From Ferruginibacter sp. (GTDB lineage Bacteria > Bacteroidota > Bacteroidia > Chitinophagales > Chitinophagaceae): 64,000 bases of DNA. Position 1 is the first letter of the stretch. Every line of letters starts with the position of its first letter. A program made the translations under genes and the position numbers. This document shows positions 2,077 to 52,183 of this stretch, one piece after another. The notes under the pieces are model-generated. The model did no database searches. It saw nothing but the letters and a program-made list of their open reading frames with translations, and was not told where the DNA came from. The stretch is from the NCBI GenBank assembly GCA_044342365.1, contig JBIIPY010000002.1, positions 34,711 through 98,710 of the forward strand, in the 5' to 3' direction.

Positions 2077-2167
2077 ACAAAAAATGGTTTTGGGTTTTGT
2101 ATGGCAGCATCGGCAATGGCTTATCCGCTAAAAATAGTTATTAATTTAATATCAAACGCAGGCTTTT

Positions 2168-2830
2168 TTAACTAAATAATTGCTGCAGTTGCGGATCGGT
2201 GTAATCATCTACCAACATCAGTACATTGTCGAAATGGGCAAACTCTTCTTCCGAATGGTACGTTTTAATTACAACTGCTTTCATACCTGCGTTGCGAGCT
2301 GCTTCTACTCCCTTCGGCGCATCTTCAAACACAATACAGTTTTCGTAGGCTGCACCCAATTTATCGGCGCATTGTAAAAAAACTTCGGGGTTGGGTTTAC
2401 TTACAGAAACATCATCAGCCGTAATGATGGCTCCAAAGTATTGCTGTATGGGCAAATGATTCAACACATAATTTACGTTATATGGGCTAGCGGCTGTGCC
2501 AATAGCCATTGCAATTTGATGAGCCGCTGCTTTTTGTAAAAAGCTATCCAATCCAGCAATGAGTTGAAGGTGCGGCAGAAAAGCTTCTTGGTATTTTTTT
2601 TCTTTTTTGAGTGAATAAGCCGCCGCCTCTTCTGGTTTGAAACGATCTTTGCCAAACACCCTTTCAAACAATTCTTCATTTTTACCATACATGTGGCTTT
2701 TTACATCCGCCATGGTCATGTTGGCATTTAAGTCATTGTTCAATATATCAAACCACGCTTTTTCATGAAAATGCATATCGTTGATCATGGTTCCATTCAT
2801 GTCGAATAAAAAAGCGGTGGAAGCGTTCAT
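2168..2830 (-). CDS. HAD-family phosphatase (beta-phosphoglucomutase-like, subfamily IA)
   Basis: Motif I FDMNGT, motif III KPNPEVF, motif IV VFEDAPKGVEAARNAGM. Start set at MNAST (2830) rather than 2878. Confidence 0.85.
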   Translation of the reverse strand: MNASTAFLFDMNGTMINDMHFHEKAWFDILNNDLNANMTMADVKSHMYGKNEELFERVFGKDRFKPEEAAAYSLKKEKKYQEAFLPHLQLIAGLDSFLQKAAAHQIAMAIGTAASPYNVNYVLNHLPIQQYFGAIITADDVSVSKPNPEVFLQCADKLGAAYENCIVFEDAPKGVEAARNAGMKAVVIKTYHSEEEFAHFDNVLMLVDDYTDPQLQQLFS

Positions 2831-2928
2831 GTTCTTAAAAATTTTTATGATAAAATAATGCTGAAATACAAAGAGCATCCATTTCAGAATGCTCTTTGTT
2901 GTATTAAATGTTATAGATCTTTAAATCA

Positions 2929-5900
2929 TTACATGTCGCGCCCATGGCATTGTTTAAACTTCTTGCCGCTTCCACAAGGACAAGGATCGTTTCTACCAAT
3001 TTTAGGTTCAACCCGAACTGGCTCTTGTTTTACGGGAGCGGATGGATCAAAATAATCTCTTTCGTTGGCTGCATAATCATCACCCGCTGCATCAATCTGC
3101 GCTTTGTTGTTCTGCATGTTGCTCATGTCTGTTTTTCCGCGACTGCCTTCCTGAATGGCCCCTGCAGTTTGTTCCATCGGAATACCTGCATGAGAAAGGA
3201 AGCTCACAATATCTTTGTTTACCTGATCATCCATTTGTTTGAATGCAGCAAAGGCTTCGATCTTGTATATCACCAATGGATCTTTTTGCTCATAGCCTGC
3301 CGTTTGCACACTCTGACGCAGATCATCCATGGCTCTTAAGTGTTCTTTCCAGGCATCGTCAATCATGGCGAGGGTAATGGTGCGTTCTAAAGCCGAGCCC
3401 AATTCCATTCCATTGCTGGAAAGGTATTTGTCTAAATTGGCCAATGCTTGAATGCCTTTTTTACCATCTGTGAAGGGTACAGCAACATTCACAATATGGT
3501 TGCCCTGTTCTTTCCGGATGTTGGTGATGATGGGCATGGTTTGTTCTGCCAGCGCATGTTTCTTTTTATTGTATTGCGCAATGGCTTCGTAGTACAGTTG
3601 TTGTGCAACAGTGTTGATATTACCTTTGGTCAACTCTTCTTCAGTGATACCGGTTTCGATTCCGAAGTTAACAATAGCAGCCAGTTTGAACCCTTCGATA
3701 TCGGCTGTTTCTCTGAATGAATGTATGAGCCCTTCTGCTACAGAATAAAAAGCATTGTCGAGATCCAACGCCAATCTTTCTCCAAACAAGGCATGGTTGC
3801 GTTTTCCGTACACCACGTTTCTTTGCTTGTTCATTACATCATCGTATTCGAGCAAACGTTTGCGGATGCCGAAGTTGTTTTCCTCCACTTTTTTCTGTGC
3901 TCTTTCAATACTTTTAGTGATCATGCTGTGTTGAATCATCTCTCCTTCCTTGTATCCCATTCTATCCATCAAGCCAGCAATTCTTTCGCTACCAAACATG
4001 CGCATCAAATCATCTTCGAGCGAAACAAAGAAAGTAGAACTTCCCGGATCACCTTGTCGTCCTGCTCTACCACGCAACTGCCTGTCTACACGCCTGCTCT
4101 CATGACGTTCTGTTCCAACGATGGCCAAACCGCCCACTTCTTTTACACCTGGCCCGAGCTTGATATCGGTACCACGACCAGCCATGTTGGTGGCAATGGT
4201 AACCGCACCCGGCATACCAGCTTCTGCAACTACTTGCGCTTCTTTGCTGTGTTGTTTTGCGTTCAATACATTGTGCGGAATGTTTTTTTGTTTCAACATT
4301 CTGCTCAACAATTCACTTACTTCTACCGAGGTAGTACCCACCAATGTTGGTCTTTTGGCATTGATGTTGAGTTCTACTTCTTCGATAACAGCCTTGTATT
4401 TCTCTCTTTTGGTTTTATACACTTTATCCTGGTCATCTTTCCTAATCACTTTTACGTTGGTTGGAATAGAAACCACATCTAATTTGTAAATGCTCCACAA
4501 CTCTGCTGCTTCTGTTTCGGCAGTACCCGTCATACCACACAATTTGTGGTACATACGAAAGTAGTTCTGCAGGGTTACTGTTGCGTAGGTTTGGGTAGAA
4601 GCTTCAATTTTTACATTTTCTTTTGCTTCGATGGCCTGGTGCAAACCGTCGCTGTAACGGCGGCCTTCCATGATACGACCAGTTTGTTCATCTACAATTT
4701 TAACGGCTTCCTCCATCACTACATACTCTATATCTTTTTCAAACAAGGTGTAAGCTTTCAGCAATTGCTGAACGGTGTGAATACGATCTGCTTTTAAAGA
4801 ATATTCGTTGATGAGGTTTTCTTTGCGTTGCAATTTTTCTTCCGCTGATAAATCTGTTTTATCTATCTCGCCTAGTTTGGTGGCGATATCGGGAAGAATA
4901 AAAAACTCAGGATCTTCTCCCTGGCGGGTGATGAGTTGAATGCCCTGATCGGTCAATTCTACTTGGTTGTTTTTTTCATCGATGGTAAAAAACAATTCAG
5001 CATCTACCTTGGGCATTTCTTTCTGCTGATCTGCCAAGTAATAGTTTTCACTTTTTTGCAATTTCACCCGCATTCCTGGTTCACTCAAAAACTTAATGAG
5101 TGCACCACTTTTGGGTAACCCACGGTGGGCACGCATCAACGCCAATCCAGCATCTTTGGGGTCGTCGTTGCCTTCAGCAATTTTTTTCTTTGCTTCAATT
5201 AAATATTGATTGGTTGCTTTTTTCTGCGCATCCAACAATCTTTCAATTCTAGGTTTGAGATCGAAGAATTGCTGAACGTTGTCGCTGTGACCAATGGGCC
5301 CACTGATGATCAATGGCGTTCGGGCATCATCAATCAACACACTATCTACCTCATCTACCATGGCAAAATGATGTTTGCGTTGTACCATTTCCTCTGGACT
5401 GTGTACCATATTGTCTCTCAGGTAATCGAAGCCAAATTCGTTGTTGGTACCGTAGGTAATATCGGCATTGTATGCTTTGCGGCGAGCATCGCTGTTGGGT
5501 TCGTGTTTATCGATACAATCTACGCGCAGGCCCAGCCATTCAAAGATGGGACCATTCCATTCACTGTCTCTTTTGGCGAGGTAATCATTTACAGTAACGA
5601 TATGCACACCTTCCTCTGCCAATGCATTGAGGTAAGCAGGCAAGGTACTCACCAGGGTTTTACCTTCGCCGGTGGCCATTTCTGCAATTTTTCCACTGTG
5701 CAAAACAGCACCACCAATGAGCTGTACGTCGTAATGCACCATGTTCCATGTAACGGCTCCTCCAGCGGCAGTCCAGGTGTTTTTGTATTCTACCTGATCA
5801 CCTACGATGGTGATATGCGCTTTTTGTGATGCTAGTTCACGGTCGAGATCGGTTGCGGTAGAAACAACAATTTCATTTTCCTTGAATCGTTTGCCCGTTT

Positions 5901-38073: not shown

Positions 38074-38220
38074 TAGCATCATCTTATAAACTTAAACAGT
38101 GATCCCTTGGTTATAAAAAGCAAAGGAAATCACATCTATTTAATTACTTATACCGTTGCTGAATCTACTAACAACAAACAAACTCAAAATTGTATCTTGT
38201 ATTCACTTAAACACACCTAC

Positions 38221-41200
38221 ATGAAGGATTTCTTTAAAATAATCACCGTATTTTTTTTACTGTTCAATTTTACCAACGTGGATGCACAACCGAACAACGA
38301 ATTTCTACAAGAATGGAAACAGGTAGAAGCTTTCGAAGCCAAAGGACTTACGCAAGATGCACTCAATGAAGTGAATCAAATTTTTGACAAAGCCATTACG
38401 GCTTCCATGCAGCCGCAACAAATAAAAGCCGCCATGTACCTCATGAAATACAGAAACATGGTGCAGGAAGACAATCAGGAAAAAAATTTATTTTACATAG
38501 ATACCCTTATCAATAGAACCAAGGCTCCGGCTAAAAATATACTGCAGTCGATGCAAGCCGAACTTTTTGCCAGTTACCTCAACAACCATCGATATGAATT
38601 GTTCGATCGTACAGCAATCGTTGCAGAAAATAGCAAAGACATTTCTACTTGGAGTATCGAGAAATTACATTTTACCAGTAACCAATTGTACAAAGCTTCG
38701 CTGCAGGATATCATCATTTTACAAAAAACGCCCATCGATGCATTTGAAGCCATCCTAACCCCTGGAAAAAATACCCGCACGCTGCGCCCAACCTTGTATG
38801 ATTTTTTAGCATTCCGTGCTCTCGATCATTTTATTGCTGCAGATGAAGTATTACCAAGTAATACCGCCAATAAATTTATCATCAATGATGAAAAAGCATT
38901 TGCACCCATCCCAACATTTGTGGCACACAGATTCACAACTACCAATACCAGTTCGAGTTATTTTGATGCCTTGCAATTACTGCAACAAATACTGGCCTTT
39001 CACCAGAACGATGCAAATAAAGATCCCCTACTAGATGCAGACCTTATTCGTTTGGCTTTTGTTCAGCAAAACGGTGTTTTTAGCAACAAAGAAAAATTGT
39101 ATTCAGCTGCATTGCTGCAAATTGAACAAACCTATACCAGCAGTTCTTTCGCAGGAATGGCCATGTTTTTACGTGCCCAAGAATGGCAAAACAAGGGCAT
39201 GGAGTATAGCCCCAGCAACAAAACAAATCAATTTGATTTAATCAAAGCCATCGAAATTGCTACAGCCATCCAGCAAAAATATCCGGGTACCGAAGGGGCT
39301 AAAAAAAGCAGCAATTTAATTGCAGATATCTCACAGCCTTCGTTTAATGTAACCACCGAGAAAGTGAACTTACCCAATGAACCCATGCGCTGTTTGGCAA
39401 CCTATCGCAACGTTCCTTCTTTGCACTTCCGGCTCATTAAAACCAACAAGACAGAAATGGAACTATTTGGAACTGACGATGATTCCATTTGGAAGACTTT
39501 GATCAACATGCCCATGTTGCGCAGTTGGAACCAAGTGCTACCCGATGAAAAAGATTACCAAGAACACAGCACTGAAATTAAAATAGACGCACTGCCACTA
39601 GGCACTTACATGTTATTGGCCAGTGTAAAACCTGACTTCACACTTACCGACAATATTTTGAGCAGTCAAATGCTCTACATCAGCAACATCAGTTACATCG
39701 AAAACAATGAAAAAGGAATCTTTGTACTGCACCGCAAAACCGGACAGCCATTGAGCAATGCAACCATTCAGGTCTGGGAAAATGAATATGATTACAACAG
39801 CAGAAAAAATAATTCAAAGCAAGCCGAAAAATTTACAACAGATGCAAATGGTTTCGCTACCATCCAATTAGACCAGCGTAAGTACAACACCCGGTTACAG
39901 ATATTGCACAAAAAAGATGAACTGTTTACAGATGACAACTACTATCATTATGATTACAACAGTAACAATGTAAATAAAAAAGTAAAAACATTTTTGTTTA
40001 CGGACCGGGCCATCTATCGGCCAGGACAAACCGTATTTTTTAAAGGGATTGTATTAAGCAAGTACGATTCCCTCCACACAAACAGTGTGATTGCCAATTA
40101 CAAAAGCACCATGCTGCTCATAAATAGCAATGGAGAAAAAGCAGGGAGCGTAGAAGTAACCAGCAATGAGTTTGGATCTTTCACAGGAAACTTTGTTTTG
40201 CCAACGGGTGTTCTCAATGGCAATTTTAGTTTGATAGACAGCAGCAGTAAAGACGTTTTTAATTTTAGTGTAGAAGAATACAAACGACCCAAATTCATCA
40301 CTTCTATTGACAAACCAGCAGGTACTTATAAATTGAATGATACCATTGTGGTGAAAGGAAAAGCCACCGCCTATGCAGGCAATACCATCAACGATGCCAA
40401 AGTGAGTTACAGAGTAGTGAGAAGAACCCGGTATCCCATTTGGTGGGGCTGGGGCAACTATGTAAAATCATTGCCACCATTCGGTAATAATGTGTCGGCA
40501 GAAATTACCAATGGATTTACCAGCACAGATGCAGATGGTATTTTTGTAATTAAATTCAAAGCCATCCCCGACGAAAAAATAGATGCCAAAGATCCCGTAA
40601 CATTTTATTATGAAGTAAGTGCAGATGTAACCGATTTAAATGGTGAAACCCGAAGCGCATCCAACGACGTAGCCGTTGCGCGTCATGCATTGGAACTGAA
40701 TGTTCAGTTACCAGAGAGATTGGCTGCTGCTGATTTCAAAAAAATACAAGTATTGAGCACCAACCTCAACGGCTTATTTGAACAATCCAAAGTACAACTG
40801 GAATTGTTCTCCCTTCAACAACCCAATAAAATGTACAGAGAACGATTTTGGGAAACACCTGATTTGTTTGTGATGGATAAAAAAACGTTTGAATCCTTTT
40901 TTCCATACGATGAATATGCCAATGAAGCCGATCCAAAAAATTGGAGCATCAACAAAAGAGAATGGGCTACTACAGATACTACCCAACGCAATGGAAATTT
41001 TAATGTGCAGTACAAAACCATTCAGCCCGGTTATTATAAACTCATCGCCAGCACCACCGACCAATTTGGCGAATTGGTGAAAACAGAGAAAATTATCCGC
41101 ATTTATGATCCTAAAAAACCATCGATACTAGACCCTTTTGTATTGGATGTAAAAAACCCAACGGCTACTCCAGGTGAATCATTGGCATATGACTTTCACA

Positions 41201-44200
41201 CTGGATTCGACAAAATTTGGTTGATCAACCAGCTTACAAAAATGGATAAATCAACTGCTTTCGAGTACAGTAATCTAACCAAGAAAAAAGGTATTCAAAA
41301 AGAAATAGCAGTAACTGAAAAGGACAGAGGAGGAATGGCCATGCAGTATATGTTTGTAAAAAACAACCGATTCTACAACGGCGGTTCAGCTTTTGATATT
41401 CCTTGGAGCAACAAGGCACTCAAGATTACCTATGAAACTTTCCGAGAAAAATTATTGCCAGGTAATAAAGAAGAATGGAAAGTAAAAATTAGTGGTATCA
41501 ATAGTGATAAAGTAGCTGCTGAAATGTTGGTGAATATGTACGATGCATCTTTAGACCAGTTTAAACAACATGATTGGGAAAAACTATCTAGCATTTGGCC
41601 AAAAGTAAATTCCTATAACAGCTGGACTAGTAAAAACTTCAGCAGCGAACGCTCCAATGAAAAATTTAATTGGATCGATAAGTATGAAATTATGGAAGAG
41701 AAGTATTACGATGTATTGGTAAACAATGGATGGAACGAAGGAAAATATGGTTATGCCAAGCATATGAAACTGTCTAGAGAGTCTGTAGATGCTGATATGG
41801 ATGGTGCACCGGCGCCTCCTGAAATCAATCAGGTCAAATTTACTCCTCCAACAATTGTAGCAGACGCTGAAGTAAACGAAGATGGAGTAAAGGACACTCA
41901 AAACAACACAGCCAATACTAACATCCGCAGCAACCTCAAAGAAACGGCTTTCTTTTTTCCGCAGCTTAAAACCGATGCTGCAGGCAATGTAACGTTCAGT
42001 TTCGACATTCCAGAAGCGCTTACTCAATGGAAATTGATGACAATGGTGCACGACAAATCATTGGCGAGTGGGTACGACGAAAGAACCGTGGTAACGCAGA
42101 AACCATTGATGGTGCAGCCCAATGGCCCAAGGTTTATGAGAGAAGGAGATGCCATGGAACTGGTGACAAAAGTGGCCAACCTCAGTAAAGAAGAAATCAC
42201 TGGAACCGTTCAATTAGAATTGTTTGATGCCATCAACAACAAGCCAGTAGATGGTTGGTTAAAAAATATTTTTCCAACTCAATATTTTACAGCACCGGCC
42301 GGACAATCAGTTGCGGTAAAATTCCCCATCGAAATACCGTTTTATTTTAGTGGCGCTTTAACGTACAGGATTAAAGCCATTTCGCAAGACCAGCAATTTA
42401 GTGATGGCGAAGAAAATACCATACCCGTGTTTACCAACAGAATGCTGGTAACAGAATCGTTGCCCCTCAACGTTCGCAATACGAATTCAAAAACATTCAA
42501 GTTTGAAAAACTTTTGCAATCAGGCAACAGCGAAACTTTGAAAAATCACGCACTCACGGTTACGTATAGCAGCAATCCATCTTGGTACGTGGTACAAGCT
42601 TTGCCTTATTTGATGGAGAACAAGGATGACAATGCCGACCAGCATTTCAACAGACTTTATGCCAATATCCTTGCTGAAAGTATTGCCAATAGCAGTCCAA
42701 AAGTAAGCGCGATTTTTAACCAATGGAAAAATTTGGATACCGTTGCATTGCAATCGAACCTACAAAAAAACGAAGCCTTAAAAGCTGCTTTGTTAGAAGA
42801 AACGCCTTGGGTATTGGATGCCAAAAACGAACAGGCTCAAAAGAAAAATATTGCCCTACTATTCGATTTGGTGAAACTGAATGCTGAAACCAAAAGCAGT
42901 CTCACTCAACTTCAAAACATGCAACTCCCCAACGGAGGCTTTGGCTGGTTCAAAGGTGGGCCAGACGATCGATACATTACACAATACATTCTTACAGGAA
43001 TTGGCCATTTGAAAAAGCTCAACGTACTCAACACTACCGATGCGGCCAATTTGCAACCAATGATCAACAAAGCCTTGGTTTATTTAGATGCACGCATCAA
43101 AGACGAATACGAGCAACTGCTGAAAAACAAAGCCAATCTTGCAGAAAAACAATTGTCGGCCACAGCCATTCAATATGGTTATATGAGAAGCTTTTTTACA
43201 GAAATACCAGTACCAGAAGCCAGCAACCCAGCTATAAATTTTTATAAAGAACAAAGCAAAAAATTCTGGGTAAAAGAATCAAAATACATGCAGGCTATGA
43301 TTGCTTTGAGTTTGCACCGCAACAACCAAACATCTGTAGCAAAAGCAATTTTAAAATCGTTGCATCAAAACGCCATCGTAAAAGAAGACTTGGGTATGTA
43401 TTGGAAAGAATTTAATACGGCTGGTTATTATTGGCACCAGGCGCCCATCGAAGCACAGGCCTTGATGATTGAAGCCTTTACAGATATTGAAAACAACACC
43501 CGTACGGTGAATGATCTCAAAACATGGTTGCTCACCCAAAAACAAACCAACAACTGGCGCAGCAGCCGTGCCACTGCAGATGCTTGTTATGCATTGTTAC
43601 TAGGCGGCGGTAGCAATTGGATAGCCGAAGAAGCAGAAGTGAATATACAGTTGGGAGAAACAAATATCCGTTCTACTGATAATATAATAGAAGCCGGTTC
43701 CGGATATTTTTCAGAAACGATTGTAGCCGAAAAAGTAAAAGCAGCCATGGGCAATATTGTGGTGAGTGTGAAAAGGCCAGACAATCAAACTTCCCAACCT
43801 GGTTTTGGTGCCGTGTACTGGCAATACACAGAAGATCTTGATAAAATTACACCGGCTGCTACGCCATTGCAACTGGAGAAAAAAATATACAAAGAAAGCA
43901 ATTCAGATAATGGGGCAGTATTGACTGAATTGAAAGAAGGCGATGTTTTAAAAGTGGGTGACAAAATCAACATTCGTATTGTATTAAAAGTAGACCGAAA
44001 CATGGAGTACGTGCACATGAAAGACATGCGTGCTGCAGCCATGGAGCCCATCAATGTACTAAGTGGATACAAGTGGCAGGGCGGTTTGGGTTATTACGAA
44101 AGCACCAAGGATGCCAGTACCCATTTCTTCTTTGGAACCCTACCCAGAGGCAGCTATGTATTTGAATATGGGTTGTTTGCCACGCATGCGGGTAATTTCA

Positions 44201-44283
44201 GCAATGGCATCACCAGCATTCAATGCATGTATGCTCCAGAATTTACGAGCCACAGTGAAGGCATTAGAATCAACATCGAATAA
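38221..44283 (+). CDS. Alpha-2-macroglobulin family protein (second type), thioester motif absent
   Basis: Sec signal peptide (VDA|Q), MG2 motif FTDRAIYRPGQTV, FSVEEYKRPKF, RSNLKETAFFFPQL, PEALTQWK and MYAPEF. The thioester position reads NADQ. Start set at MKDFF. Confidence 0.92.
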   Translation: MKDFFKIITVFFLLFNFTNVDAQPNNEFLQEWKQVEAFEAKGLTQDALNEVNQIFDKAITASMQPQQIKAAMYLMKYRNMVQEDNQEKNLFYIDTLINRTKAPAKNILQSMQAELFASYLNNHRYELFDRTAIVAENSKDISTWSIEKLHFTSNQLYKASLQDIIILQKTPIDAFEAILTPGKNTRTLRPTLYDFLAFRALDHFIAADEVLPSNTANKFIINDEKAFAPIPTFVAHRFTTTNTSSSYFDALQLLQQILAFHQNDANKDPLLDADLIRLAFVQQNGVFSNKEKLYSAALLQIEQTYTSSSFAGMAMFLRAQEWQNKGMEYSPSNKTNQFDLIKAIEIATAIQQKYPGTEGAKKSSNLIADISQPSFNVTTEKVNLPNEPMRCLATYRNVPSLHFRLIKTNKTEMELFGTDDDSIWKTLINMPMLRSWNQVLPDEKDYQEHSTEIKIDALPLGTYMLLASVKPDFTLTDNILSSQMLYISNISYIENNEKGIFVLHRKTGQPLSNATIQVWENEYDYNSRKNNSKQAEKFTTDANGFATIQLDQRKYNTRLQILHKKDELFTDDNYYHYDYNSNNVNKKVKTFLFTDRAIYRPGQTVFFKGIVLSKYDSLHTNSVIANYKSTMLLINSNGEKAGSVEVTSNEFGSFTGNFVLPTGVLNGNFSLIDSSSKDVFNFSVEEYKRPKFITSIDKPAGTYKLNDTIVVKGKATAYAGNTINDAKVSYRVVRRTRYPIWWGWGNYVKSLPPFGNNVSAEITNGFTSTDADGIFVIKFKAIPDEKIDAKDPVTFYYEVSADVTDLNGETRSASNDVAVARHALELNVQLPERLAAADFKKIQVLSTNLNGLFEQSKVQLELFSLQQPNKMYRERFWETPDLFVMDKKTFESFFPYDEYANEADPKNWSINKREWATTDTTQRNGNFNVQYKTIQPGYYKLIASTTDQFGELVKTEKIIRIYDPKKPSILDPFVLDVKNPTATPGESLAYDFHTGFDKIWLINQLTKMDKSTAFEYSNLTKKKGIQKEIAVTEKDRGGMAMQYMFVKNNRFYNGGSAFDIPWSNKALKITYETFREKLLPGNKEEWKVKISGINSDKVAAEMLVNMYDASLDQFKQHDWEKLSSIWPKVNSYNSWTSKNFSSERSNEKFNWIDKYEIMEEKYYDVLVNNGWNEGKYGYAKHMKLSRESVDADMDGAPAPPEINQVKFTPPTIVADAEVNEDGVKDTQNNTANTNIRSNLKETAFFFPQLKTDAAGNVTFSFDIPEALTQWKLMTMVHDKSLASGYDERTVVTQKPLMVQPNGPRFMREGDAMELVTKVANLSKEEITGTVQLELFDAINNKPVDGWLKNIFPTQYFTAPAGQSVAVKFPIEIPFYFSGALTYRIKAISQDQQFSDGEENTIPVFTNRMLVTESLPLNVRNTNSKTFKFEKLLQSGNSETLKNHALTVTYSSNPSWYVVQALPYLMENKDDNADQHFNRLYANILAESIANSSPKVSAIFNQWKNLDTVALQSNLQKNEALKAALLEETPWVLDAKNEQAQKKNIALLFDLVKLNAETKSSLTQLQNMQLPNGGFGWFKGGPDDRYITQYILTGIGHLKKLNVLNTTDAANLQPMINKALVYLDARIKDEYEQLLKNKANLAEKQLSATAIQYGYMRSFFTEIPVPEASNPAINFYKEQSKKFWVKESKYMQAMIALSLHRNNQTSVAKAILKSLHQNAIVKEDLGMYWKEFNTAGYYWHQAPIEAQALMIEAFTDIENNTRTVNDLKTWLLTQKQTNNWRSSRATADACYALLLGGGSNWIAEEAEVNIQLGETNIRSTDNIIEAGSGYFSETIVAEKVKAAMGNIVVSVKRPDNQTSQPGFGAVYWQYTEDLDKITPAATPLQLEKKIYKESNSDNGAVLTELKEGDVLKVGDKINIRIVLKVDRNMEYVHMKDMRAAAMEPINVLSGYKWQGGLGYYESTKDASTHFFFGTLPRGSYVFEYGLFATHAGNFSNGITSIQCMYAPEFTSHSEGIRINIE

Positions 44284-44362: not shown

Positions 44363-44797
44363 ATGCAAGCGCAAACAGAAAAAGGCAATCATATCAGTCT
44401 CCAAGCCAATAGCAACGGAGAGGCATTTTACAAAATACCCGAGCGATACCGCAAGATGGAAAATTTGCACATCGTATTTTGGTTGTTCAAAGACATTGCC
44501 TGGTGCATGCTTTGGAAACCACTTGGGATTTTAATGGTATTCCCTACCCTTTTAATTGCCATCATCATCAGTTGGAGAACCAAAAACATTGTGAGTGAGC
44601 TTTGCCACAATCTCGCCATCGTACTTTGGATTTCTGCCAACTCCTATTGGATGATCAGTGAATTTTTACATTTCGATAGCATCATCATTACCGGTACAAT
44701 TACCTACAAGCACATTGCTATCATACCGTTTGTATTGGGTATTTTGATATTGGGTTGGTTTTATTTGTGGTATGTACCGAGGTACAAACGGGTTTAA
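44363..44797 (+). CDS. Hypothetical 4-TM membrane protein
   Basis: Four hydrophobic segments; ENLHIVFWLFKD and HNLAIVLWISANSYW look like a duplicated unit. Confidence 0.75.
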   Translation: MQAQTEKGNHISLQANSNGEAFYKIPERYRKMENLHIVFWLFKDIAWCMLWKPLGILMVFPTLLIAIIISWRTKNIVSELCHNLAIVLWISANSYWMISEFLHFDSIIITGTITYKHIAIIPFVLGILILGWFYLWYVPRYKRV

Positions 44798-44864: not shown

Positions 44865-45896
44865 CTATAGCTGCAACAATTCTTTTAAATGTGCCGCACT
44901 AGAAATTATCCTTGTATTGGCCTGTAGGTTTTGCTGCAGTTCTTTAATATTATTGATGTCATATTTTATCCTGGTTTCTACCGACGGCGGTTTCTTTCCA
45001 TGCATATAAAAAGATTCATTTGATCCAAAGCTGTGAAATATATTTTGTTGAAGGATTCTTTTCAAAGCCTCCAGCTTTTTTTTCATAGAGTTGTTGTATA
45101 ATTTTAGCAATTGCAAAGAATAGGTTTTTTCGGAGCTGCTTGTTTTATTAATCACATCTGCTTTTTGTTTGATAAACAACATGGCATGAATATCTGCCTT
45201 GTCTTTGGCAGCAGTTAATTCTTTCATCAATTCCTCTTTGCGATAACGGATAGCCTCGTCCTGCTCAAGGTCGGGATGGATGAGTTTAGCCAGTTCTTTG
45301 TATAATTCAGAAATAGATTTTTTCTCCATATCATCTGCCAACTTTTTTTTGGTTTCATTATTTGACCGGCTAAAAGGTTGTTCTCTTGAATAATCGTCAT
45401 CTTCATTTAAATAAGTTTCTTCATCTTCCTCCTGCTGCAATGCAGGCGCTTTTTTCGTTTTTGGAAACAGGCCCAATTGCCAGTTGAGGTAATTATCCAT
45501 TTTATCTTTGGCGGCCTCCAGGTGTACGGCTGCGTCCTGCAGGATAAATATGGCAAATGCCACAAAACTTCTTTCCATGTTTTTAGAAAATTTGTTGGCA
45601 TAAAATATTGCTTCCAGTTTTTCTATAAACAACAGTTGTGTGTGGGCCAGCTCAATTAAAAAGGGCTGTACTTTCGAAAAGAATAACTGCTGGTATTTTT
45701 CATCTTCCATCTTTTGCCGCTCATTTTCCTTTTCCTGTTCCTTCAGTTCTTTAATCAGTTTATTAAAACGCCGCATTTCTTTTTCAAGAGGGGTATCATT
45801 TTTAGAAGCTTTCTTTTGGGTAAGCTGAATGAGCGGCAGTATATCTGCCTGGTCATTTTCCAATTGTTCTGTCATATCTAAATATTTTTTATCCAT
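44865..45896 (-). CDS. Coiled-coil protein with degenerate J-domain-like HPD motif
   Basis: 343-aa ORF with an N-terminal coiled coil, an acidic stretch, and ISELYKELAKLIHPDLEQ...ELMKELTAAK. Confidence 0.75.
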   Translation of the reverse strand: MDKKYLDMTEQLENDQADILPLIQLTQKKASKNDTPLEKEMRRFNKLIKELKEQEKENERQKMEDEKYQQLFFSKVQPFLIELAHTQLLFIEKLEAIFYANKFSKNMERSFVAFAIFILQDAAVHLEAAKDKMDNYLNWQLGLFPKTKKAPALQQEEDEETYLNEDDDYSREQPFSRSNNETKKKLADDMEKKSISELYKELAKLIHPDLEQDEAIRYRKEELMKELTAAKDKADIHAMLFIKQKADVINKTSSSEKTYSLQLLKLYNNSMKKKLEALKRILQQNIFHSFGSNESFYMHGKKPPSVETRIKYDINNIKELQQNLQANTRIISSAAHLKELLQL

Positions 45897-46221
45897 TTAA
45901 GATTGATGATTAGCGAAGTGCAAATCTCGTCAAATTTTAAATTGCTGCCACTCATCATACTTACTTTACCATTGATGAAAGAAATGTTTCCGCCCTTAAC
46001 GGATTTATTCCTACAATTGCGAGCTTCTATATATCTTCGTATTCCAAATTTAAATGGAGCATGCTCCCATATAAAATGTACCATCTTTTCGCAAAGCGAT
46101 TTTTCAATTTTCGCCAATGAGTTTAACTGGCGTCTAATGATTACTATTTACTTGAGTCGCTTTTTTTACAAACTATTTAGGGCAAATTATATTACAGCAC
46201 CATAAAAATTAAACCAGTACA

Positions 46222-46557
46222 ATGAATAAATATAAAATAATATTAACCGGAGTATTCCTTTCTGCTACTATTATTTTTTCATCCTGTGAAGATGAAAAGA
46301 ACGAAGATCTTACCCAAACCGTTAATAAAAACGGATCTGTTGAAACATCTGTAACCGTGGAGCATTTAGACAGCGTGAATGACATACTGGTGACCAAGCA
46401 TGCCGTTTGGCACAAGGGTTCTATCAATAAAACTTTTGAACACAGGGATACTGTGCCTGCCCTTGGATCGGAAAAGACAGCTATAAAAGACGATTTTGGT
46501 AACGATAAAAATGTAGAAGCAAAAAAAGAATACGAGATTTTTATTACGGTGAAGTAG
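46222..46557 (+). CDS. Small hypothetical lipoprotein
   Basis: Lipobox FSSC followed by acidic EDEKNED; the mature part appears beta-rich. Confidence 0.8.
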   Translation: MNKYKIILTGVFLSATIIFSSCEDEKNEDLTQTVNKNGSVETSVTVEHLDSVNDILVTKHAVWHKGSINKTFEHRDTVPALGSEKTAIKDDFGNDKNVEAKKEYEIFITVK

Positions 46558-46603
46558 GAGAAAGCTGATTGGTGAAATCTTCAAAGAGCTACGGAAATTA
46601 GAG

Positions 46604-47007
46604 GTTGAAAAACGTTGAACGGCTTGAACTTCTTGAACCTTGAACCTCTTGAACGTTGAACCTCTTGAAAGTTGAACCTCTTGAACGTTGAACCTCTTGA
46701 ACGTTGAACCTCTTGAACGTTGAACTTCTTGAACGTTGAACCTCTTGAACGTTGAACCTCTTGAACGTTGAACCTCTTGAACGTTGAACTTCTTGAACGT
46801 TGAACCTCTTGAACGTTGAACCTCTTGAACGTTGAACCTCTTGAACGTTGAACCTCTTGAACGTTGAACCTCTTGAACGTTGAACTTCTTGAACGTTGAA
46901 CCTCTTGAACGTTGAACTTCTTGAACGTTGAACTTCTTGAACGTTGAACTTCTTGAACGTTGAACCTCTTGAACGTTGAACCCCTTGAACGTTGAACCCC
47001 TTAAACT
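46604..47007 (+). repeat. 16-bp tandem repeat array (TTGAAC[C/T]TC TTGAACG), ~23 regular units at 46640-47007 with a degenerate left edge
   Basis: Counted by hand. Units 6, 10, 16, 18, 19 and 20 have TTC, units 22-23 have CCC, unit 2 has TTGAAAG. No unique spacers. Confidence 0.97.
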
Positions 47008-47036
47008 TTTGAAACATCTTAAACATTAAAAGACGA

Positions 47037-47381
47037 ATGAAAAAAACAAAAACAATACAACTCATTTTAATTACTGCAGCCCTAGCATCCTGTGCCGAAA
47101 AAAAGAAAGAGCCCGAGTGGGGCAGCGGCAATAAAACTTATGTGAGGGGCGATAGTACCGCACCTTATACCCGCACTCACCACGGCGGCGGAGGCATGCT
47201 GGGTGTGGCGCTATGGTATTATGCCTTCAGGCCCTATGGAGGTTTTAATAATGGAACTTATTCACGGGCTGGATATTATTCCAATGCAATACCACACAAT
47301 GCCAACATAGGAGCCAACGGATTAAAAGGAAAAGCAGTGAGGGGCGGATTTGGAAGAACAGGGGTTAGAGCAGGCAGCTAA
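47037..47381 (+). CDS. Small Gly/Tyr/Arg-rich lipoprotein, YgiB/YjfM-like (RGGFG tail)
   Basis: Lipobox LASC, Gly/Tyr-rich body and C-terminal AVRGGFGRTGVRAGS; directly upstream of a GSP-synthase-like gene, as in E. coli ygiB-ygiC. Confidence 0.75.
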   Translation: MKKTKTIQLILITAALASCAEKKKEPEWGSGNKTYVRGDSTAPYTRTHHGGGGMLGVALWYYAFRPYGGFNNGTYSRAGYYSNAIPHNANIGANGLKGKAVRGGFGRTGVRAGS

Positions 47382-47383
47382 GC

Positions 47384-47616
47384 AGATGTATGATGTTGGA
47401 TGTGCTATGTAGGATTTCCTCCCGTTCGATTAAATTTTTTGTTTACAAATTTTTTAACTGTAAAAAGAAAACAGAAAAATCGGCCCTTATCATGCAAAAG
47501 AAATTTTAAAACCCCTTATACATTTCGAATCATTCATAACATGATGTAGATATTCTCTTTTCATGAATGCTCTTTCATTTTAAAAGAAATCATACATCAC
47601 ATATCATAAATCATCT
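47384..47616. repeat. Inverted degenerate heptad-repeat arms bracketing the intergenic region
   Basis: AGATGTATGATGTTGGATGTGCTATGTAGGATTT (47384-47417) is imperfectly complementary to AAATCATACATCACATATCATAAATCATCT (47587-47616). Confidence 0.55.
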
Positions 47617-47619
47617 ATT

Positions 47620-48750
47620 TTGGAACGGATTAAAACACAACCCAGGAGAAACTGGCAGGCGGAGGTAGAAAAACTGGGTTTTGGATTTCATACCAGTGAC
47701 ATGCCTTATTGGGATGAAACAGCCTACTACCGTTTTAGCATAGACGAAATAAATCATGTAGAAAAAGCAACTGCTACTTTATGGGAGCTTTGCCTTGGAG
47801 CTGTTCAGCATGTTATAGATAACAAATTATACAGCCAGCTCAAGATCCCAGAAAATTTTATTCCCTACATAGAAAAAACATGGGACGAAGAACATCCTTC
47901 TATTTATGGCCGCTTTGACCTTTGCTATAAAAACGGCAAAATAAAAATGCTTGAGTTTAATGCCGATACCCCCACAAGCCTTTACGAAGCAGGCATCGTA
48001 CAGTGGTTTTGGTTGCAGGATCTTGATAAAAACAAGGACCAGTTTAACAGCATACATGAAAAACTGATTGCTTACTGGACCTATTTAAAAGTATACCTGC
48101 AGCCCGGCATACTGCATTTTACCTGCATCAAAGATTCTCTCGAAGATTTGACCAATACAGAATACATGCGTGACTGTGCCTTACAGGCGGGCATTGAAAC
48201 CAAACTGGTATTTACAGATGATATTGGATGGGAACAGGAGAGCGCACAATTTGCAGACATGGAAATGGAACCAATCAAAAATATTTTCAAACTATACCCT
48301 TGGGAGTGGCTGGCTGCAGAGCAGTTTGGCCAGAATATTTTGCTGGATACCAATAAAACATTCTGGATAGAACCTGCATGGAAAATGATTTTATCCAACA
48401 AAGCCATTCTTCCAATACTCTGGCAATTGTATCCCAATTGTGAATACCTGCTTCCTGCTTACTTTGAAGAACATGACCTGAAAGATTATGTAAAAAAACC
48501 AATCTTTTCTCGGGAAGGTTCCAATATTGAAATGGTAAAACATTACGGAACCATTGAAAAAACATCCGGCGAATATGGGGCCGAGGGTTTTATTTATCAG
48601 CAACTTTTTAAGCTACCCGAATTTGATGACAACTATCCCGTCATCGGCAGTTGGATCATAGGACAGGAACCTGCAGGCCTCGGCATCAGGGAAGCAAACG
48701 GTTTGATTACAGATAACAAGAGCAGGTTTGTGCCGCATTTGATTGGTTGA
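47620..48750 (+). CDS. Glutathionylspermidine synthase family ATP-grasp ligase (YgiC/YjfC-like, no amidase domain)
   Basis: TTG start; YGRFD, LEFNADTPTSLYEA, EPAWKMILSNKAILPILW, YVKKPIFSREGSNI and PVIGSWIIG. Confidence 0.93.
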   Translation: MERIKTQPRRNWQAEVEKLGFGFHTSDMPYWDETAYYRFSIDEINHVEKATATLWELCLGAVQHVIDNKLYSQLKIPENFIPYIEKTWDEEHPSIYGRFDLCYKNGKIKMLEFNADTPTSLYEAGIVQWFWLQDLDKNKDQFNSIHEKLIAYWTYLKVYLQPGILHFTCIKDSLEDLTNTEYMRDCALQAGIETKLVFTDDIGWEQESAQFADMEMEPIKNIFKLYPWEWLAAEQFGQNILLDTNKTFWIEPAWKMILSNKAILPILWQLYPNCEYLLPAYFEEHDLKDYVKKPIFSREGSNIEMVKHYGTIEKTSGEYGAEGFIYQQLFKLPEFDDNYPVIGSWIIGQEPAGLGIREANGLITDNKSRFVPHLIG

Positions 48751-50902: not shown

Positions 50903-52183
50903 ATGAAGCCATTATTAAAAACATTTTTTTTATTCATTACGGCCATTGGTTTTGCAATAGGCTGCGAGGCACAACTGTTTTTCAGGAATACGCTCAAAGC
51001 CAATCGGGATAAACTGTATCAAAACCTCACTAAAAACGCTATTCAAAAAAACTTATCGGTTTCTCTTACCGATTCAACCGAAGAAGATTGGCAAGGTGCT
51101 TTTTATGCAATGGAGCTTCTTCAATACAAAAGCCCATGGGTGAACAAAAGGATTGATAGTGCGGCTTTTTTAATGCACAGCTTGTCACCCGGTTTTCAAA
51201 GGGCTGCGCTGGAAATGCTGTATAGCAACTATCCAGAAAAATATTACCAGGAGGTAAAGCTTTTGTTGATGCAAACAACAGATGCAAAAATTTTTGCCAT
51301 GTGTGCTGCCTATATTTTAAACAGTAGCAAAGCCCAGGAAGACCTTTCTTTTTTGAAAGTAAAAACGCAGCAACAACTAGAGGGCCAGCCCAACCATCCC
51401 ATATTGGAACAATTACAGTACCAGTTACAAATGTTTGGTATAAAGTTAGATGTGCCCGATCTGAGTCCTTTGTTGTTACCAGATTATTTAAAAGGCCACA
51501 ATATTGTATTCAGTTTCCAAAGAAAAAACAGGGATTATCCCGGATTGGTATTGGTGCGAAAAGCAGATGGCAGCTTTGTTCGCGATAGCAGCAGTGGTTT
51601 TCCATTTGCAGTTCCACAACTGGCCAGAAGCATCAACAATTTACCCGGTTACATTACCAATGGCAACACACCAGAAGGCATTTTTAGAATGAAGGGATAC
51701 GATGTTTCTACCAATGGTTTTATTGGACCCACCGTAAACGTACAATTAACCATGCCTTTCGAGCGCAGTGCTGGCCATTTTACCGCCAATGAAAACAACC
51801 AAGATACGGTTTGGGATATCCGCTATTATCAACAATTATTGCCCAGCGCTCTACAACATTATTATCCCTTGCTACAAAGTTATTTTGCTGGTAAAACGGG
51901 GCGTACCGAGATCATCATACACGGTACCACCGTAAATCCTGAATACTATCGCCAACAACCTTATTATCCATTAACACCTACCATGGGTTGCCTCACCAGC
52001 AAAGAAATTTGGGATGAGGCCACTGGCAGAAGAGTAGAAAGTGATCAACAAAAAATAATTCAGGCGCTCATTGCTGCCGGAGGTGCAAATGGTTATACCA
52101 TTGTGGTAAACATTAATGAGGAACAAAGGCCTGTAATGCTGGCCGACATCCTCCCACTCCTCTACAAAGCCGGCCTTAAATAA
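50903..52183 (+). CDS. Exported hypothetical protein with L,D-transpeptidase (YkuD)-like catalytic motifs
   Basis: Signal peptide or lipobox (AIGC); GNTPEGIF, IIIHGT and PTMGCL. Confidence 0.7.
   Translation: MKPLLKTFFLFITAIGFAIGCEAQLFFRNTLKANRDKLYQNLTKNAIQKNLSVSLTDSTEEDWQGAFYAMELLQYKSPWVNKRIDSAAFLMHSLSPGFQRAALEMLYSNYPEKYYQEVKLLLMQTTDAKIFAMCAAYILNSSKAQEDLSFLKVKTQQQLEGQPNHPILEQLQYQLQMFGIKLDVPDLSPLLLPDYLKGHNIVFSFQRKNRDYPGLVLVRKADGSFVRDSSSGFPFAVPQLARSINNLPGYITNGNTPEGIFRMKGYDVSTNGFIGPTVNVQLTMPFERSAGHFTANENNQDTVWDIRYYQQLLPSALQHYYPLLQSYFAGKTGRTEIIIHGTTVNPEYYRQQPYYPLTPTMGCLTSKEIWDEATGRRVESDQQKIIQALIAAGGANGYTIVVNINEEQRPVMLADILPLLYKAGLK

What the first reader, a model, noticed from the sequence alone, without database searches (positions are those of the whole stretch)
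46222..48750. Candidate novel system: two lipoproteins plus a GSP-synthase-like ATP-grasp ligase
Seen: three co-oriented genes, namely a lipoprotein with an acidic post-Cys stretch (C-EDEKNED), a Gly/Tyr/Arg-rich lipoprotein with a basic post-Cys stretch and an RGGFG tail, and a cytoplasmic ligase lacking the amidase domain. Known: E. coli ygiB-ygiC and yjfM-yjfC pair such an RGGFG protein with a ligase that does not make glutathionylspermidine, often beside PspA and DUF350 genes; acidic residues after the Cys act as a surface-export signal in Bacteroidota. No PspA or DUF350 gene is present here, and the first lipoprotein is extra. Inference: a minimal peptide- or polyamine-ligation envelope-stress system in which the small RGG protein is the substrate or precursor (RiPP-like) or a cofactor.
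Basis: partly seen in the sequence, partly recalled or inferred. Interest (0 to 1): 0.75.

Follow-up and report, generated by a model that had tools for sequence, protein, structure and literature searches.

The report
Bacteroidota lipoprotein pair plus polyamine ligase
This lake bacterium carries a conserved three-gene unit: two small lipoproteins and an enzyme of the type that joins peptides to polyamines. It is the Bacteroidota form of the poorly understood E. coli ygiB-ygiC pair, and comparing many genomes points to the second lipoprotein's conserved tail as the enzyme's likely natural target.

Summary
Three co-oriented intact genes are present:
- g1, 46222-46557, a lipoprotein with an acidic neck.
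- g2, 47037-47381, a lipoprotein ending RGGFG plus 8 residues.
- A 376-aa ligase, 47620-48750. It matches PF03738 over its full length, is 45% identical to E. coli YgiC, and has no amidase domain.

The association is far beyond chance:
- 72 of 74 ligase loci from several phyla have an exported or membrane-anchored protein with an RGGFG-type tail directly upstream.
- In 201 Bacteroidota genomes, g1 and g2 occur only beside the ligase.
- Within the genus, g2 and the ligase are present together in 3 of 37 genomes and absent together from the rest; g1 lies beside them in all 3. The unit sits as an insertion or deletion between conserved neighbours.

g2 is not a Pfam DUF1190 member. It shares only the signal/lipobox and the RGGFG tail with YgiB and YjfM, and it is predicted to be disordered. 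g1 is a confident five-strand beta domain with no solved relative, and it is restricted to Bacteroidota and Ignavibacteria.

Verdict: a new variant of the known ygiBC/yjfMC module, not a categorically new system. The idea that g2's tail is the ligase substrate is plausible, at roughly 35-40%, but untested. It requires modification before export. A 16-bp tandem-repeat array and a 238-bp spacer interrupt the operon in this strain only.

The parts
46222..46557 (+). g1: 111-aa lipoprotein (lipobox Cys22 at 46285-46287) with the acidic neck EDEKNED and a five-strand beta domain
   Evidence: The ORF is. It has no Pfam family. It is conserved directly upstream of g2 in about 55 loci. The AF2 mature domain has pLDDT above 90, with no PDB fold match. 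The family has 558 clusters, all unnamed. In the phylum sample it is found only inside the cassette.
46624..47006 (.). 16-bp x 24 tandem repeat (TTGAACCTCTTGAACG) in the g1-g2 spacer. It is a strain-specific insertion, not a conserved part of the cassette.
   Evidence: Tandem Repeats Finder result. The array is absent from relatives. The same unit forms two other arrays on this contig outside the window. Short-read contigs break inside it, and one lake sample carries a form that skips 351 bp.
47037..47381 (+). g2: 114-aa lipoprotein (lipobox Cys19 at 47091-47093), predicted disordered and rich in Gly, Tyr and Arg, with a LWYYAFRPYG aromatic patch
   Evidence: The ORF is. PF06693 is not matched even at E<=10. 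The family has 376 clusters at 90% identity and 241 clusters at 50% identity, all in the 150 best matches listed 59-161 aa. Alignments are A1 and A2. AF2 pLDDT is 55, with a short helix at residues 54-63.
47340..47378 (+). The C-terminal RGGFG motif (47340-47354) plus the 8-residue tail RTGVRAGS, which is the candidate recognition element and substrate end
   Evidence: R, G, G, F and G are at least 90% conserved across A2. An equivalent tail is present in 72 of 74 ligase loci and in E. coli YgiB and YjfM. After removing signal peptides, it is the best-scoring stretch shared by the g2 profile and a DUF1190-type profile.
47382..47619 (.). 238-bp AT-rich spacer between g2 and the ligase. It is unique in the genome and unusually long for this cassette.
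   Evidence: An independent metagenome contig spans 46953-48393 with no differences.
47620..48750 (+). YgiC-type ATP-grasp acid-amine ligase (peptide-polyamine ligase), 376 aa, TTG start, with no signal peptide and no amidase domain
   Evidence: PF03738 E 7e-148. It is 45% identical to YgiC (E 4e-120) and 39% identical to YjfC, both over the full length. PDB matches are 7UK8 YgiC at E 8e-108 and 7UK6 YjfC at E 9e-86. It is a single copy in the genome.

Best explanation
**What it is (about 90% sure).** This is a self-contained three-gene envelope cassette, the Bacteroidota/Ignavibacteria form of the E. coli ygiB-ygiC and yjfM-yjfC modules.
- Gene 3 is a cytoplasmic YgiC-type ATP-grasp ligase. 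In E. coli this enzyme type joins a peptide carboxylate to spermidine in vitro and does not make glutathionylspermidine.
- Gene 2 is a lipidated, exported, largely disordered protein. It keeps the one feature common to all partners of such ligases, a C-terminal RGGFG motif followed by a short tail of small residues.
- Gene 1 is a small beta-sheet lipoprotein found only in this lineage. Its acidic neck suggests that it is flipped to the cell surface.

**How it works (inferred, about 35-40%).**
1. The ligase docks on the RGGFG segment of newly made g2.
2. It activates the free C-terminal carboxylate, 8 residues further on, as an acyl phosphate.
3. It amidates that carboxylate with a polyamine (spermidine or homospermidine) before Sec export and lipidation.
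4. The cationic, carboxylate-free tail then acts in the periplasm or outer membrane, possibly together with g1. It might bind anionic envelope polymers or escape C-terminus-reading proteases.

**Shown:** gene identities, conservation, adjacency, motif conservation, and predicted disorder of the tail.
**Inferred:** the substrate relationship, the timing of modification, the identity of the amine, and the envelope role.
For: - The ligase is YgiC-like over its whole length. RefSeq names YgiC and YjfC 'peptide--spermidine ligase'. A review cites the in vitro activity and says the physiological substrate is unknown.
- An RGGFG-type-tailed protein lies directly upstream of the ligase in 72 of 74 loci from Bacteroidota, Ignavibacteria, Planctomycetota, Acidobacteriota, Gemmatimonadota and CPR (candidate phyla radiation). 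The stop and start codons often overlap or are 0-3 bp apart.
- The rest of the partner protein is not conserved between phyla. Only the signal peptide and the RGGFG stretch align between the profiles.
- The tail after the motif is 8 residues long in nearly all Bacteroidota loci (range 7-12) and ends in Ser, Gly or Ala. Proteobacterial partners end in Gly-Gly, like the Gly carboxylate that Gsp synthetase uses.
- AF2 predicts the tail to be disordered, with pLDDT below 50, as expected of a linear motif.
- Co-occurrence is strict: g2 and the ligase in 3 of 37 genus genomes, with g1 beside them in all 3. In 201 phylum genomes, g1 and g2 are found only next to the ligase.
- The cassette is an insertion or deletion between mem144 and aspS.
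Against: - Every partner has a signal peptide, lipobox or N-in anchor. Its tail therefore ends up outside the cytoplasm while the ligase stays inside, so modification would have to come before export.
- The fixed tail length does not hold in E. coli, where YgiB has 25 residues after RGGFG and YjfM has 12.
- No direct evidence exists for any modified partner protein.
- The peptide preference reported for YgiC and YjfC could not be read here because the paper is not held.
- In this strain the operon is loosened by 479-bp and 238-bp spacers, and no RNA data exist to show co-expression.
- No clear spermidine synthase was found in the genome.
- Earlier agents in this scan reached the same idea. That is not independent evidence.
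Confidence: 0.4

Rival explanations
1. The ligase acts on a small cytoplasmic peptide rather than on g2. Candidates are a peptidoglycan stem or recycling peptide with a gamma-Glu link, or another glutathione-like peptide, which would be joined to a polyamine. The two lipoproteins work in the same pathway outside the cell, for example by binding polyamine-modified wall or exported conjugate, or by sensing envelope state, but they are not substrates.
For: - The only reported activity of YgiC and YjfC is on free peptides in vitro.
- This reading fits the topology without requiring modification before export.
- Related ligase subfamilies sit beside membrane spermidine-synthase-like genes, and published operons link such ligases to polyamine metabolism.
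Against: - It does not explain why the only conserved feature of the partner across phyla is a terminal linear motif with a short, small-residue end.
- It does not explain the frequent translational coupling of partner and ligase.
Confidence: 0.3
2. RiPP-like reading: g2 is a precursor whose C-terminal peptide is modified by the ligase, cut off, and released as a small bioactive or signalling peptide.
For: g2 is a short, disordered protein with a highly conserved C-terminal peptide next to an ATP-grasp enzyme. ATP-grasp enzymes do modify some ribosomal peptides; this is general knowledge and was not tested here.
Against: - The cassette has no protease, no dedicated exporter and no immunity gene, either here or in about 70 related loci.
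- g2 has a classic lipoprotein signal rather than a leader peptide.
- The whole mature protein, not only the tail, is well conserved within Bacteroidota, including the DSTAPYT and LWYYAFRPYG blocks.
Confidence: 0.05
3. The genes are only neighbours that are co-regulated or co-inherited, with no direct functional link between the lipoproteins and the ligase.
For: In this strain the genes are separated by long spacers and may have separate promoters. The neighbour mem144 looked linked at first but turned out to be a simple synteny neighbour.
Against: - The adjacency holds across at least six phyla, with different flanking genes.
- Joint presence and absence are strict.
- The cassette moves as a unit to another site in G017.
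Confidence: 0.05

Closest known systems
E. coli YgiB-YgiC (tolC-ygiB-ygiC locus; YgiC structures PDB 7UK8/7UKA)
   Same: - The ligase is 45% identical over its full length, has the same domain and lacks the amidase domain.
- The gene order is the same, with the partner directly upstream of the ligase.
- The partner has a lipobox signal, a disordered body and an RGGFG motif near the C-terminus.
   Different: - g2 is half the size (114 aa against 223 aa).
- It lacks the Cys-rich DUF1190 core and does not match PF06693.
- Its tail after RGGFG is 8 residues ending in Ser, not 25 residues ending in Gly-Gly.
- There is no tolC linkage.
- An extra lipoprotein, g1, precedes the pair.
E. coli YjfM-YjfC within yjfIJKLMC (PspA-family, DUF350, DUF2491 context; YjfC structures PDB 7UK6/7UK7)
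   Same: The ligase is 39% identical. The partner ends in RGGYG plus 12 residues. The system has been proposed as a polyamine-linked envelope system.
   Different: No PspA, DUF350, DUF2170 or DUF2491 genes are present here. The nearby 4-TM protein mem144 is only a synteny neighbour.
Bifunctional glutathionylspermidine synthetase/amidase GspS (PDB 2IO7) and trypanothione synthetase (PDB 2VOB)
   Same: The same ATP-grasp synthetase fold family, PF03738. The chemistry is amidation of a C-terminal Gly carboxylate with spermidine.
   Different: There is no N-terminal amidase domain, and the equivalog model scores far below its cut-off. The E. coli YgiC and YjfC homologues do not make glutathionylspermidine.
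RimK / ribosomal protein S6 (ATP-grasp ligase acting on a protein's C-terminus); an analogy from general knowledge
   Same: An ATP-grasp enzyme dedicated to the C-terminal carboxylate of one specific protein.
   Different: RimK belongs to a different ATP-grasp family, adds glutamates rather than an amine, and has a cytoplasmic substrate. The resemblance is only conceptual and was not tested.

Membership tests
YgiC/YjfC-type GSP_synth ATP-grasp ligases (PF03738 without amidase) | Full-length match to PF03738 above the gathering score | tested here: met
   493 bits against a cut-off of 29.3, covering profile positions 1-371 of 371
YgiC/YjfC-type GSP_synth ATP-grasp ligases (PF03738 without amidase) | End-to-end similarity to the structurally characterised YgiC and YjfC | tested here: met
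   45% identity to YgiC (E 4e-120) and 39% to YjfC (E 1e-94). PDB 7UK8 at E 8e-108. Blocks such as NADTPTSLYEA, KPIFSREG and GIGIRE are conserved in the alignment.
YgiC/YjfC-type GSP_synth ATP-grasp ligases (PF03738 without amidase) | Peptide-polyamine ligase activity | not testable with these tools
   This needs an enzyme assay. The activity is reported for the E. coli enzymes only.
Bifunctional glutathionylspermidine synthetase/amidase (NF007801) | N-terminal CHAP amidase domain and an equivalog score of at least 882 bits | tested here: not met
   173 bits, with only the C-terminal part of the model matched. The protein is 376 aa against 619 aa.
DUF1190 / UPF0441 (YgiB, YjfM; PF06693), tested for g2 | Match to PF06693 at or above its gathering score of 22 bits | tested here: not met
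   No hit even at E<=10. YgiB scores 187 bits and YjfM 64 bits.
DUF1190 / UPF0441 (YgiB, YjfM; PF06693), tested for g2 | Profile-profile similarity beyond the signal peptide | tested here: inconclusive
   With hhalign, the full profiles align only over the signal peptide (probability 93%). After trimming it, the best local hit is the 14-column xxVxRGGFGxxx stretch (P 1e-4, probability 57%). More distant partners give sub-threshold PF06693 hits at the model's C-terminal end (E 0.011-0.34).
DUF1190 / UPF0441 (YgiB, YjfM; PF06693), tested for g2 | N-terminal signal/lipobox, C-terminal RGG[FY]G tail, and a gene directly upstream of a YgiC-type ligase | tested here: met
PspA-linked polyamine/ATP-grasp operons (Ravi et al. 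2024, PMC11237479) | PspA-family, CesT/Tir-like, DUF350 or DUF2491 genes in the same operon | tested here: not met
   The neighbours are an alpha-2-macroglobulin-like giant protein, mem144 (no Pfam family), a DnaJ-like gene on the opposite strand, and aspS. mem144 is present in 22 of 37 genus genomes regardless of the cassette.
Bacteroidetes surface lipoproteins carrying the lipoprotein export signal (PMC5080379), tested for g1 | K-(D/E)2 or Q-A-(D/E)2 just after the lipidated Cys | tested here: inconclusive
   The window g1 has C-EDEKNED, which is acidic but lacks K at position +2. Many orthologues have C-KDE, C-KDD or C-KEE. Surface exposure itself cannot be tested here. g2 (C-AEKKKE) lacks the signal.
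RiPP precursor / modifying enzyme clusters | Leader peptide, dedicated protease and/or exporter in the cluster | tested here: not met
   None of these is present in the window or in the related loci inspected.

The most novel reading that the evidence does not exclude
The RGGFG-tailed lipoprotein is the long-sought physiological substrate of YgiC-type ligases. In this reading the enzyme caps the protein's C-terminal carboxylate with a polyamine in the cytoplasm before Sec export. This would be an undescribed bacterial protein modification, C-terminal polyamination of an exported lipoprotein, shared from E. coli to Bacteroidota, with g1 as a lineage-specific outer-membrane or surface partner of the modified protein.
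Probability: 0.35. Interest if true: 0.8.

Novelty: new variant of a known kind. Interest (0 to 1): 0.5.

Why it matters
YgiB/YgiC and YjfM/YjfC have been linked to TolC-dependent and Cpx envelope-stress phenotypes for over a decade, and the ligase's natural substrate is still unknown. The Bacteroidota cassette is a stripped-down natural experiment. The partner has lost everything that defines DUF1190 except the export signal and the RGGFG tail, yet it stays strictly coupled to the ligase. That narrows the functional link to about 13 C-terminal residues and makes it directly testable with peptides and mass spectrometry. The work also defines two unannotated protein families, g1 and g2, each with hundreds of members and no Pfam model. 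If the tail is the substrate, this would be a new kind of protein modification in the bacterial envelope.

Tried and rejected
1. **mem144 (44363-44797) as a DUF350-like fourth component: rejected.** It lies next to the cassette in many Chitinophagaceae loci. However, it is present in 22 of 37 genus genomes against 3 for the cassette, and it abuts aspS directly in genomes that lack the cassette. It has no Pfam hit even at E<=10.
2. **g2 as a DUF1190 homologue: not established.** Pfam gives no hit. Profile-profile comparison finds only the signal peptide and the motif. A profile search of 1.8 billion representatives found 241 clusters; all of the 150 best matches listed are short (59-161 aa), with no 200-aa DUF1190-type proteins. 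The YgiB homologue search returned only close enterobacterial relatives, which were of little use for building a diverse profile.
3. **Fold of g1.** The model is confident, but Foldseek against the PDB gave nothing significant (best E 0.18, TM 0.34). The NCBIfam MAG3240 hit for g1 (22 bits against a cut-off of 160) reflects signal-peptide or composition similarity only.
4. **Fold of g2.** The model has low confidence (pLDDT 55), so no fold search was made.
5. **Regulatory elements.** Sigma-70-type promoter and terminator scans were at background level. There is no Bacteroidota TAnnTTTG box in the three upstream regions and no Rfam family.
6. **Expression.** Only DNA metagenomes from lake water hold this sequence. 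No RNA runs were found.
7. **Amine supply.** There is no clear spermidine synthase (24-bit partial hit). Three saccharopine-dehydrogenase-like proteins could include carboxyspermidine dehydrogenase or homospermidine synthase, but NCBIfam did not resolve them.
8. **The primary YgiC/YjfC papers could not be read**.
Full report
**1. What is in the sequence.**

The window holds three intact, co-oriented ORFs at the stated coordinates.
- g1 (46222-46557, 111 aa) has a lipoprotein signal ending FSSC, followed by EDEKNED.
- g2 (47037-47381, 114 aa) has a signal ending LASC, followed by AEKKKE. Its mature part is rich in Gly, Tyr and Arg, and its C-terminus reads ...KAVRGGFGRTGVRAGS.
- The third ORF (47620-48750, 376 aa, TTG start) matches Pfam GSP_synth (PF03738) over the whole model (E 7e-148). 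It reaches only 173 of the 882 bits needed for the bifunctional glutathionylspermidine amidase/synthetase equivalog.
- It is 45% identical to E. coli YgiC and 39% identical to YjfC from end to end. Its best PDB matches are YgiC (7UK8, E 8e-108) and YjfC (7UK6).
- g1 and g2 match no Pfam family, even at E<=10.

The g1-g2 gap is 479 bp and contains a 16-bp x 24 tandem repeat at 46624-47006. The gap between g2 and the ligase is 238 bp.

**2. Is the grouping real?**

Within the genus (37 genomes), g2 and the ligase are each present in exactly the same three genomes, and they are adjacent in all three. g1 sits directly upstream in all three.

A scan of one genome per species returned 80 loci around ligase relatives.
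- The order g1-g2-ligase recurs in about 55 of these loci. They come from Chitinophagaceae, Sphingobacteriaceae (Pedobacter, Mucilaginibacter), Saprospiraceae, Prolixibacteraceae, a Microbacter MAG, Weeksellaceae/Flavobacteriales and an Ignavibacteriaceae MAG.
- In a sample of 201 good-quality Bacteroidota genomes, four carry this ligase type.
  - Three of the four have a full-length g2 match right beside the ligase.
  - The fourth (G074) has a membrane-anchored 148-aa protein ending RNAGFGRFGSRFSLGS, whose stop codon overlaps the ligase start.
  - No genome has g1 or g2 without the ligase.

The 144-aa membrane protein upstream (44363-44797) looked like a fourth member at first, but it is not. 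It occurs in 22 of 37 genus genomes, and in genomes without the cassette it lies directly next to aspS. The three genes therefore form a cassette that is inserted or deleted at a conserved site. In one relative (G017) the whole cassette sits elsewhere in the genome.

**3. The partner protein.**

Within Bacteroidota the g2 family is strongly conserved: 376 clusters at 90% identity and 241 at 50% identity, with the 150 best matches listed 59-161 aa long, and none named. The alignments show four conserved elements:
- an invariant lipobox Cys;
- a DSTAPYT block;
- an aromatic patch, LWYYAFRPYG;
- a nearly invariant RGGFG.

AlphaFold2 gives a low-confidence, mostly disordered model (pLDDT 55). It has one short helix over the aromatic patch and a tail below pLDDT 50. 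A review says the same of the E. coli YgiB model.

Outside the Bacteroidota/Ignavibacteria group, the gene directly upstream of the ligase encodes proteins of unrelated sequence. This holds for Planctomycetota, Acidobacteriota, Gemmatimonadota and CPR (candidate phyla radiation). These proteins again begin with a signal peptide, lipobox or N-in membrane anchor, and they end with RGGFG plus about 10 small residues.

Counting all loci with enough upstream DNA:
- 68 of 74 have RGG[FYMW]G within 40 residues of the end of an ORF that stops no more than 700 bp before the ligase, and usually less than 120 bp before it;
- four more have one-residue variants (RNGFG, SGGFG, TGGFG, FGGFG);
- two have no partner.

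The tail after the motif is 8 residues long in nearly all Bacteroidota loci (range 7-12) and ends in Ser, Gly or Ala.

E. coli YgiB (…[29 protein letters not shown]) and YjfM (…SRGGYGRSSSARGHWGG) carry the same motif, but with longer tails that end in Gly-Gly. A second GSP_synth subfamily in Bacteroidota has 200-aa partners ending …GRSGYGSGRSTRSYGG or …GFGSRGGSRGFGG.

**4. Is g2 a DUF1190 protein?**

By the family's own criterion it is not. PF06693 does not match g2, whereas YgiB and YjfM score 187 and 64 bits.
- Profile-profile comparison of the g2 family with a DUF1190-type alignment aligns only the signal peptide.
- With signal peptides removed, the top local match is the 14-column stretch around RGGFG (P 1e-4, probability 57%).
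- Distant partners from Gemmatimonadota, Planctomycetota and Weeksellaceae give sub-threshold PF06693 hits confined to the C-terminal end of the model (E 0.011-0.34).

I therefore treat g2 as a functional counterpart of YgiB and YjfM. It shares their two terminal modules and their genomic position, but it lacks the Cys-rich core that defines DUF1190. Common ancestry is possible but not shown.

**5. g1.**

The g1 family (558 clusters, about 110 aa, all 'hypothetical') is confined to this cassette in the genomes sampled. It is missing from a sub-variant in which g2 is Cys-rich (L059, L070, G216).
- AlphaFold2 predicts a confident five-strand antiparallel beta domain, with pLDDT above 90 for residues 38-101.
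- Foldseek finds no significant solved relative (best E 0.18).
- The stretch after the lipidated Cys is acidic throughout the family. In many members it reads K-D-E, K-D-D or K-E-E. This is the published Bacteroidetes lipoprotein export signal K-(D/E)2 (PMC5080379).
- The window copy (EDEKNED) is acidic but lacks the Lys at position +2. g2 has a basic neck and no such signal.

Surface exposure of g1 and a periplasmic location for g2 are thus reasonable predictions, not findings.

**6. Mechanism.**

What is established elsewhere:
- YgiC and YjfC do not make glutathionylspermidine.
- They have peptide-spermidine ligase activity in vitro, and their physiological substrate is unknown.
- ygiB is Cpx-regulated, contributes to fitness under stress, and its protein accumulates in a tail-specific-protease mutant.

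What the comparison here adds is that the only element of the partner kept across phyla is a disordered C-terminal linear motif a short distance from a small C-terminal residue. It is encoded immediately before the ligase gene and is often translationally coupled to it. This is what would be expected if the ligase recognises RGGFG and amidates the terminal carboxylate, by analogy with the glycine carboxylate of glutathione in Gsp synthetase.

The main difficulty is topology, because all partners are exported or anchored N-in/C-out. The ligase would therefore have to act before Sec translocation. For a protein of about 110 aa this is feasible in principle but unproven.

My estimates are:
- about 35-40% for the substrate model;
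- about 30% that the ligase makes a small peptide-polyamine conjugate, for example from wall-derived or glutathione-like peptides, which the lipoproteins then use or sense;
- small odds for a RiPP-like cleaved product, since no protease, exporter or leader peptide is present;
- small odds for mere neighbourhood.

Which amine is used is open. No clear spermidine synthase was found, and three saccharopine-dehydrogenase-family proteins remain unresolved.

**7. The state of the cassette in this strain.**

The tandem repeat between g1 and g2 is not part of the conserved cassette.
- Relatives have 5-30 bp at this position, and the closest relative has only a 31-bp trace.
- The same 16-bp unit forms two more arrays on the contig, outside the window.
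- Short-read contigs from four lake metagenomes break inside the array, so its copy number is unverified. One sample carries a form that skips 351 bp.
- The 238-bp spacer between g2 and the ligase is unique in the genome and is confirmed by an independent contig.

All three ORFs are intact, but co-transcription cannot be assumed here, and no RNA data exist.

**8. Comparison and verdict.**

The closest known systems are E. coli ygiB-ygiC and yjfM-yjfC. The window's cassette is the same in four respects:
- the ligase family and its lack of an amidase domain;
- the gene order;
- the exported, disordered partner;
- the RGGFG tail.

It differs in four respects:
- a much smaller partner that fails the DUF1190 test;
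- a fixed 8-residue Ser-ended tail;
- an additional conserved beta-sheet lipoprotein;
- no tolC, PspA or DUF350 context.

It is a new variant of a known kind. Earlier notes in this scan on E. coli and phage copies of the pair proposed the same substrate idea. They agree with my reading, but they are not independent evidence.

Interest is moderate. The locus is ordinary in that its core is a known module. It is useful in that it reduces the unexplained YgiB-YgiC link to a short peptide that can be tested directly.

Noticed in passing
window 46624-47006; also C144:25522-25651 and C144:27347-27604 (outside the window): The 16-bp unit TTGAACCTCTTGAACG forms three separate intergenic tandem arrays within about 56 kb of one contig. 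The array inside the cassette is strain-variable: one lake metagenome has a form that skips 351 bp. Short-read assemblies break inside it, so the count of 24 copies is unverified.
   Followed up: partly
window 44865-45896 (- strand): A 343-aa Lys/Glu-rich protein with a weak J-domain hit (PF00226, E 0.003) lies between mem144 and g1. It is present only here and in the closest relative L066, so it is a lineage-specific insertion next to the cassette.
   Followed up: partly
window 45948-46123 (upstream of g1): A stretch of about 175 bp upstream of g1 is conserved at the DNA level (73-87% identity) downstream of mem144 in several relatives, including some without the cassette (L101, L102, L104). 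No Rfam family matches it. It may be a conserved terminator, promoter or small RNA of the mem144 region.
   Followed up: no
L116 (G200:C65), 1902-3446: In a second Bacteroidota GSP_synth subfamily, the ligase-partner pair is divergently adjacent to a 514-aa multi-pass membrane protein. By eye it resembles the membrane-fused spermidine-synthase-like proteins described in PspA-linked operons. It was not checked with a profile.
   Followed up: no
L062 3689-3999 and G038:C30:61947-63068: Possible decay of the module in some genomes. In the Saprospiraceae MAG L062, g2 is split over two reading frames, either by a frameshift or by an assembly error. The G038 ligase homologue carries an in-frame TAG.
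   Followed up: no
L059, L070, L118 (G216): A sub-variant of g2 has several Cys residues in its mature part and an RGGFG or RGGWG tail. It lacks g1. In G216, the gene upstream is instead a 390-aa protein ending ...YGIF, like an outer-membrane beta-barrel.
   Followed up: partly
window 38107-44283 and 50903-52183: The cassette's conserved flanks are a 2058-aa alpha-2-macroglobulin-like protein plus mem144 on one side. All are envelope-related neighbours, but they are not co-distributed with the cassette.
   Followed up: partly
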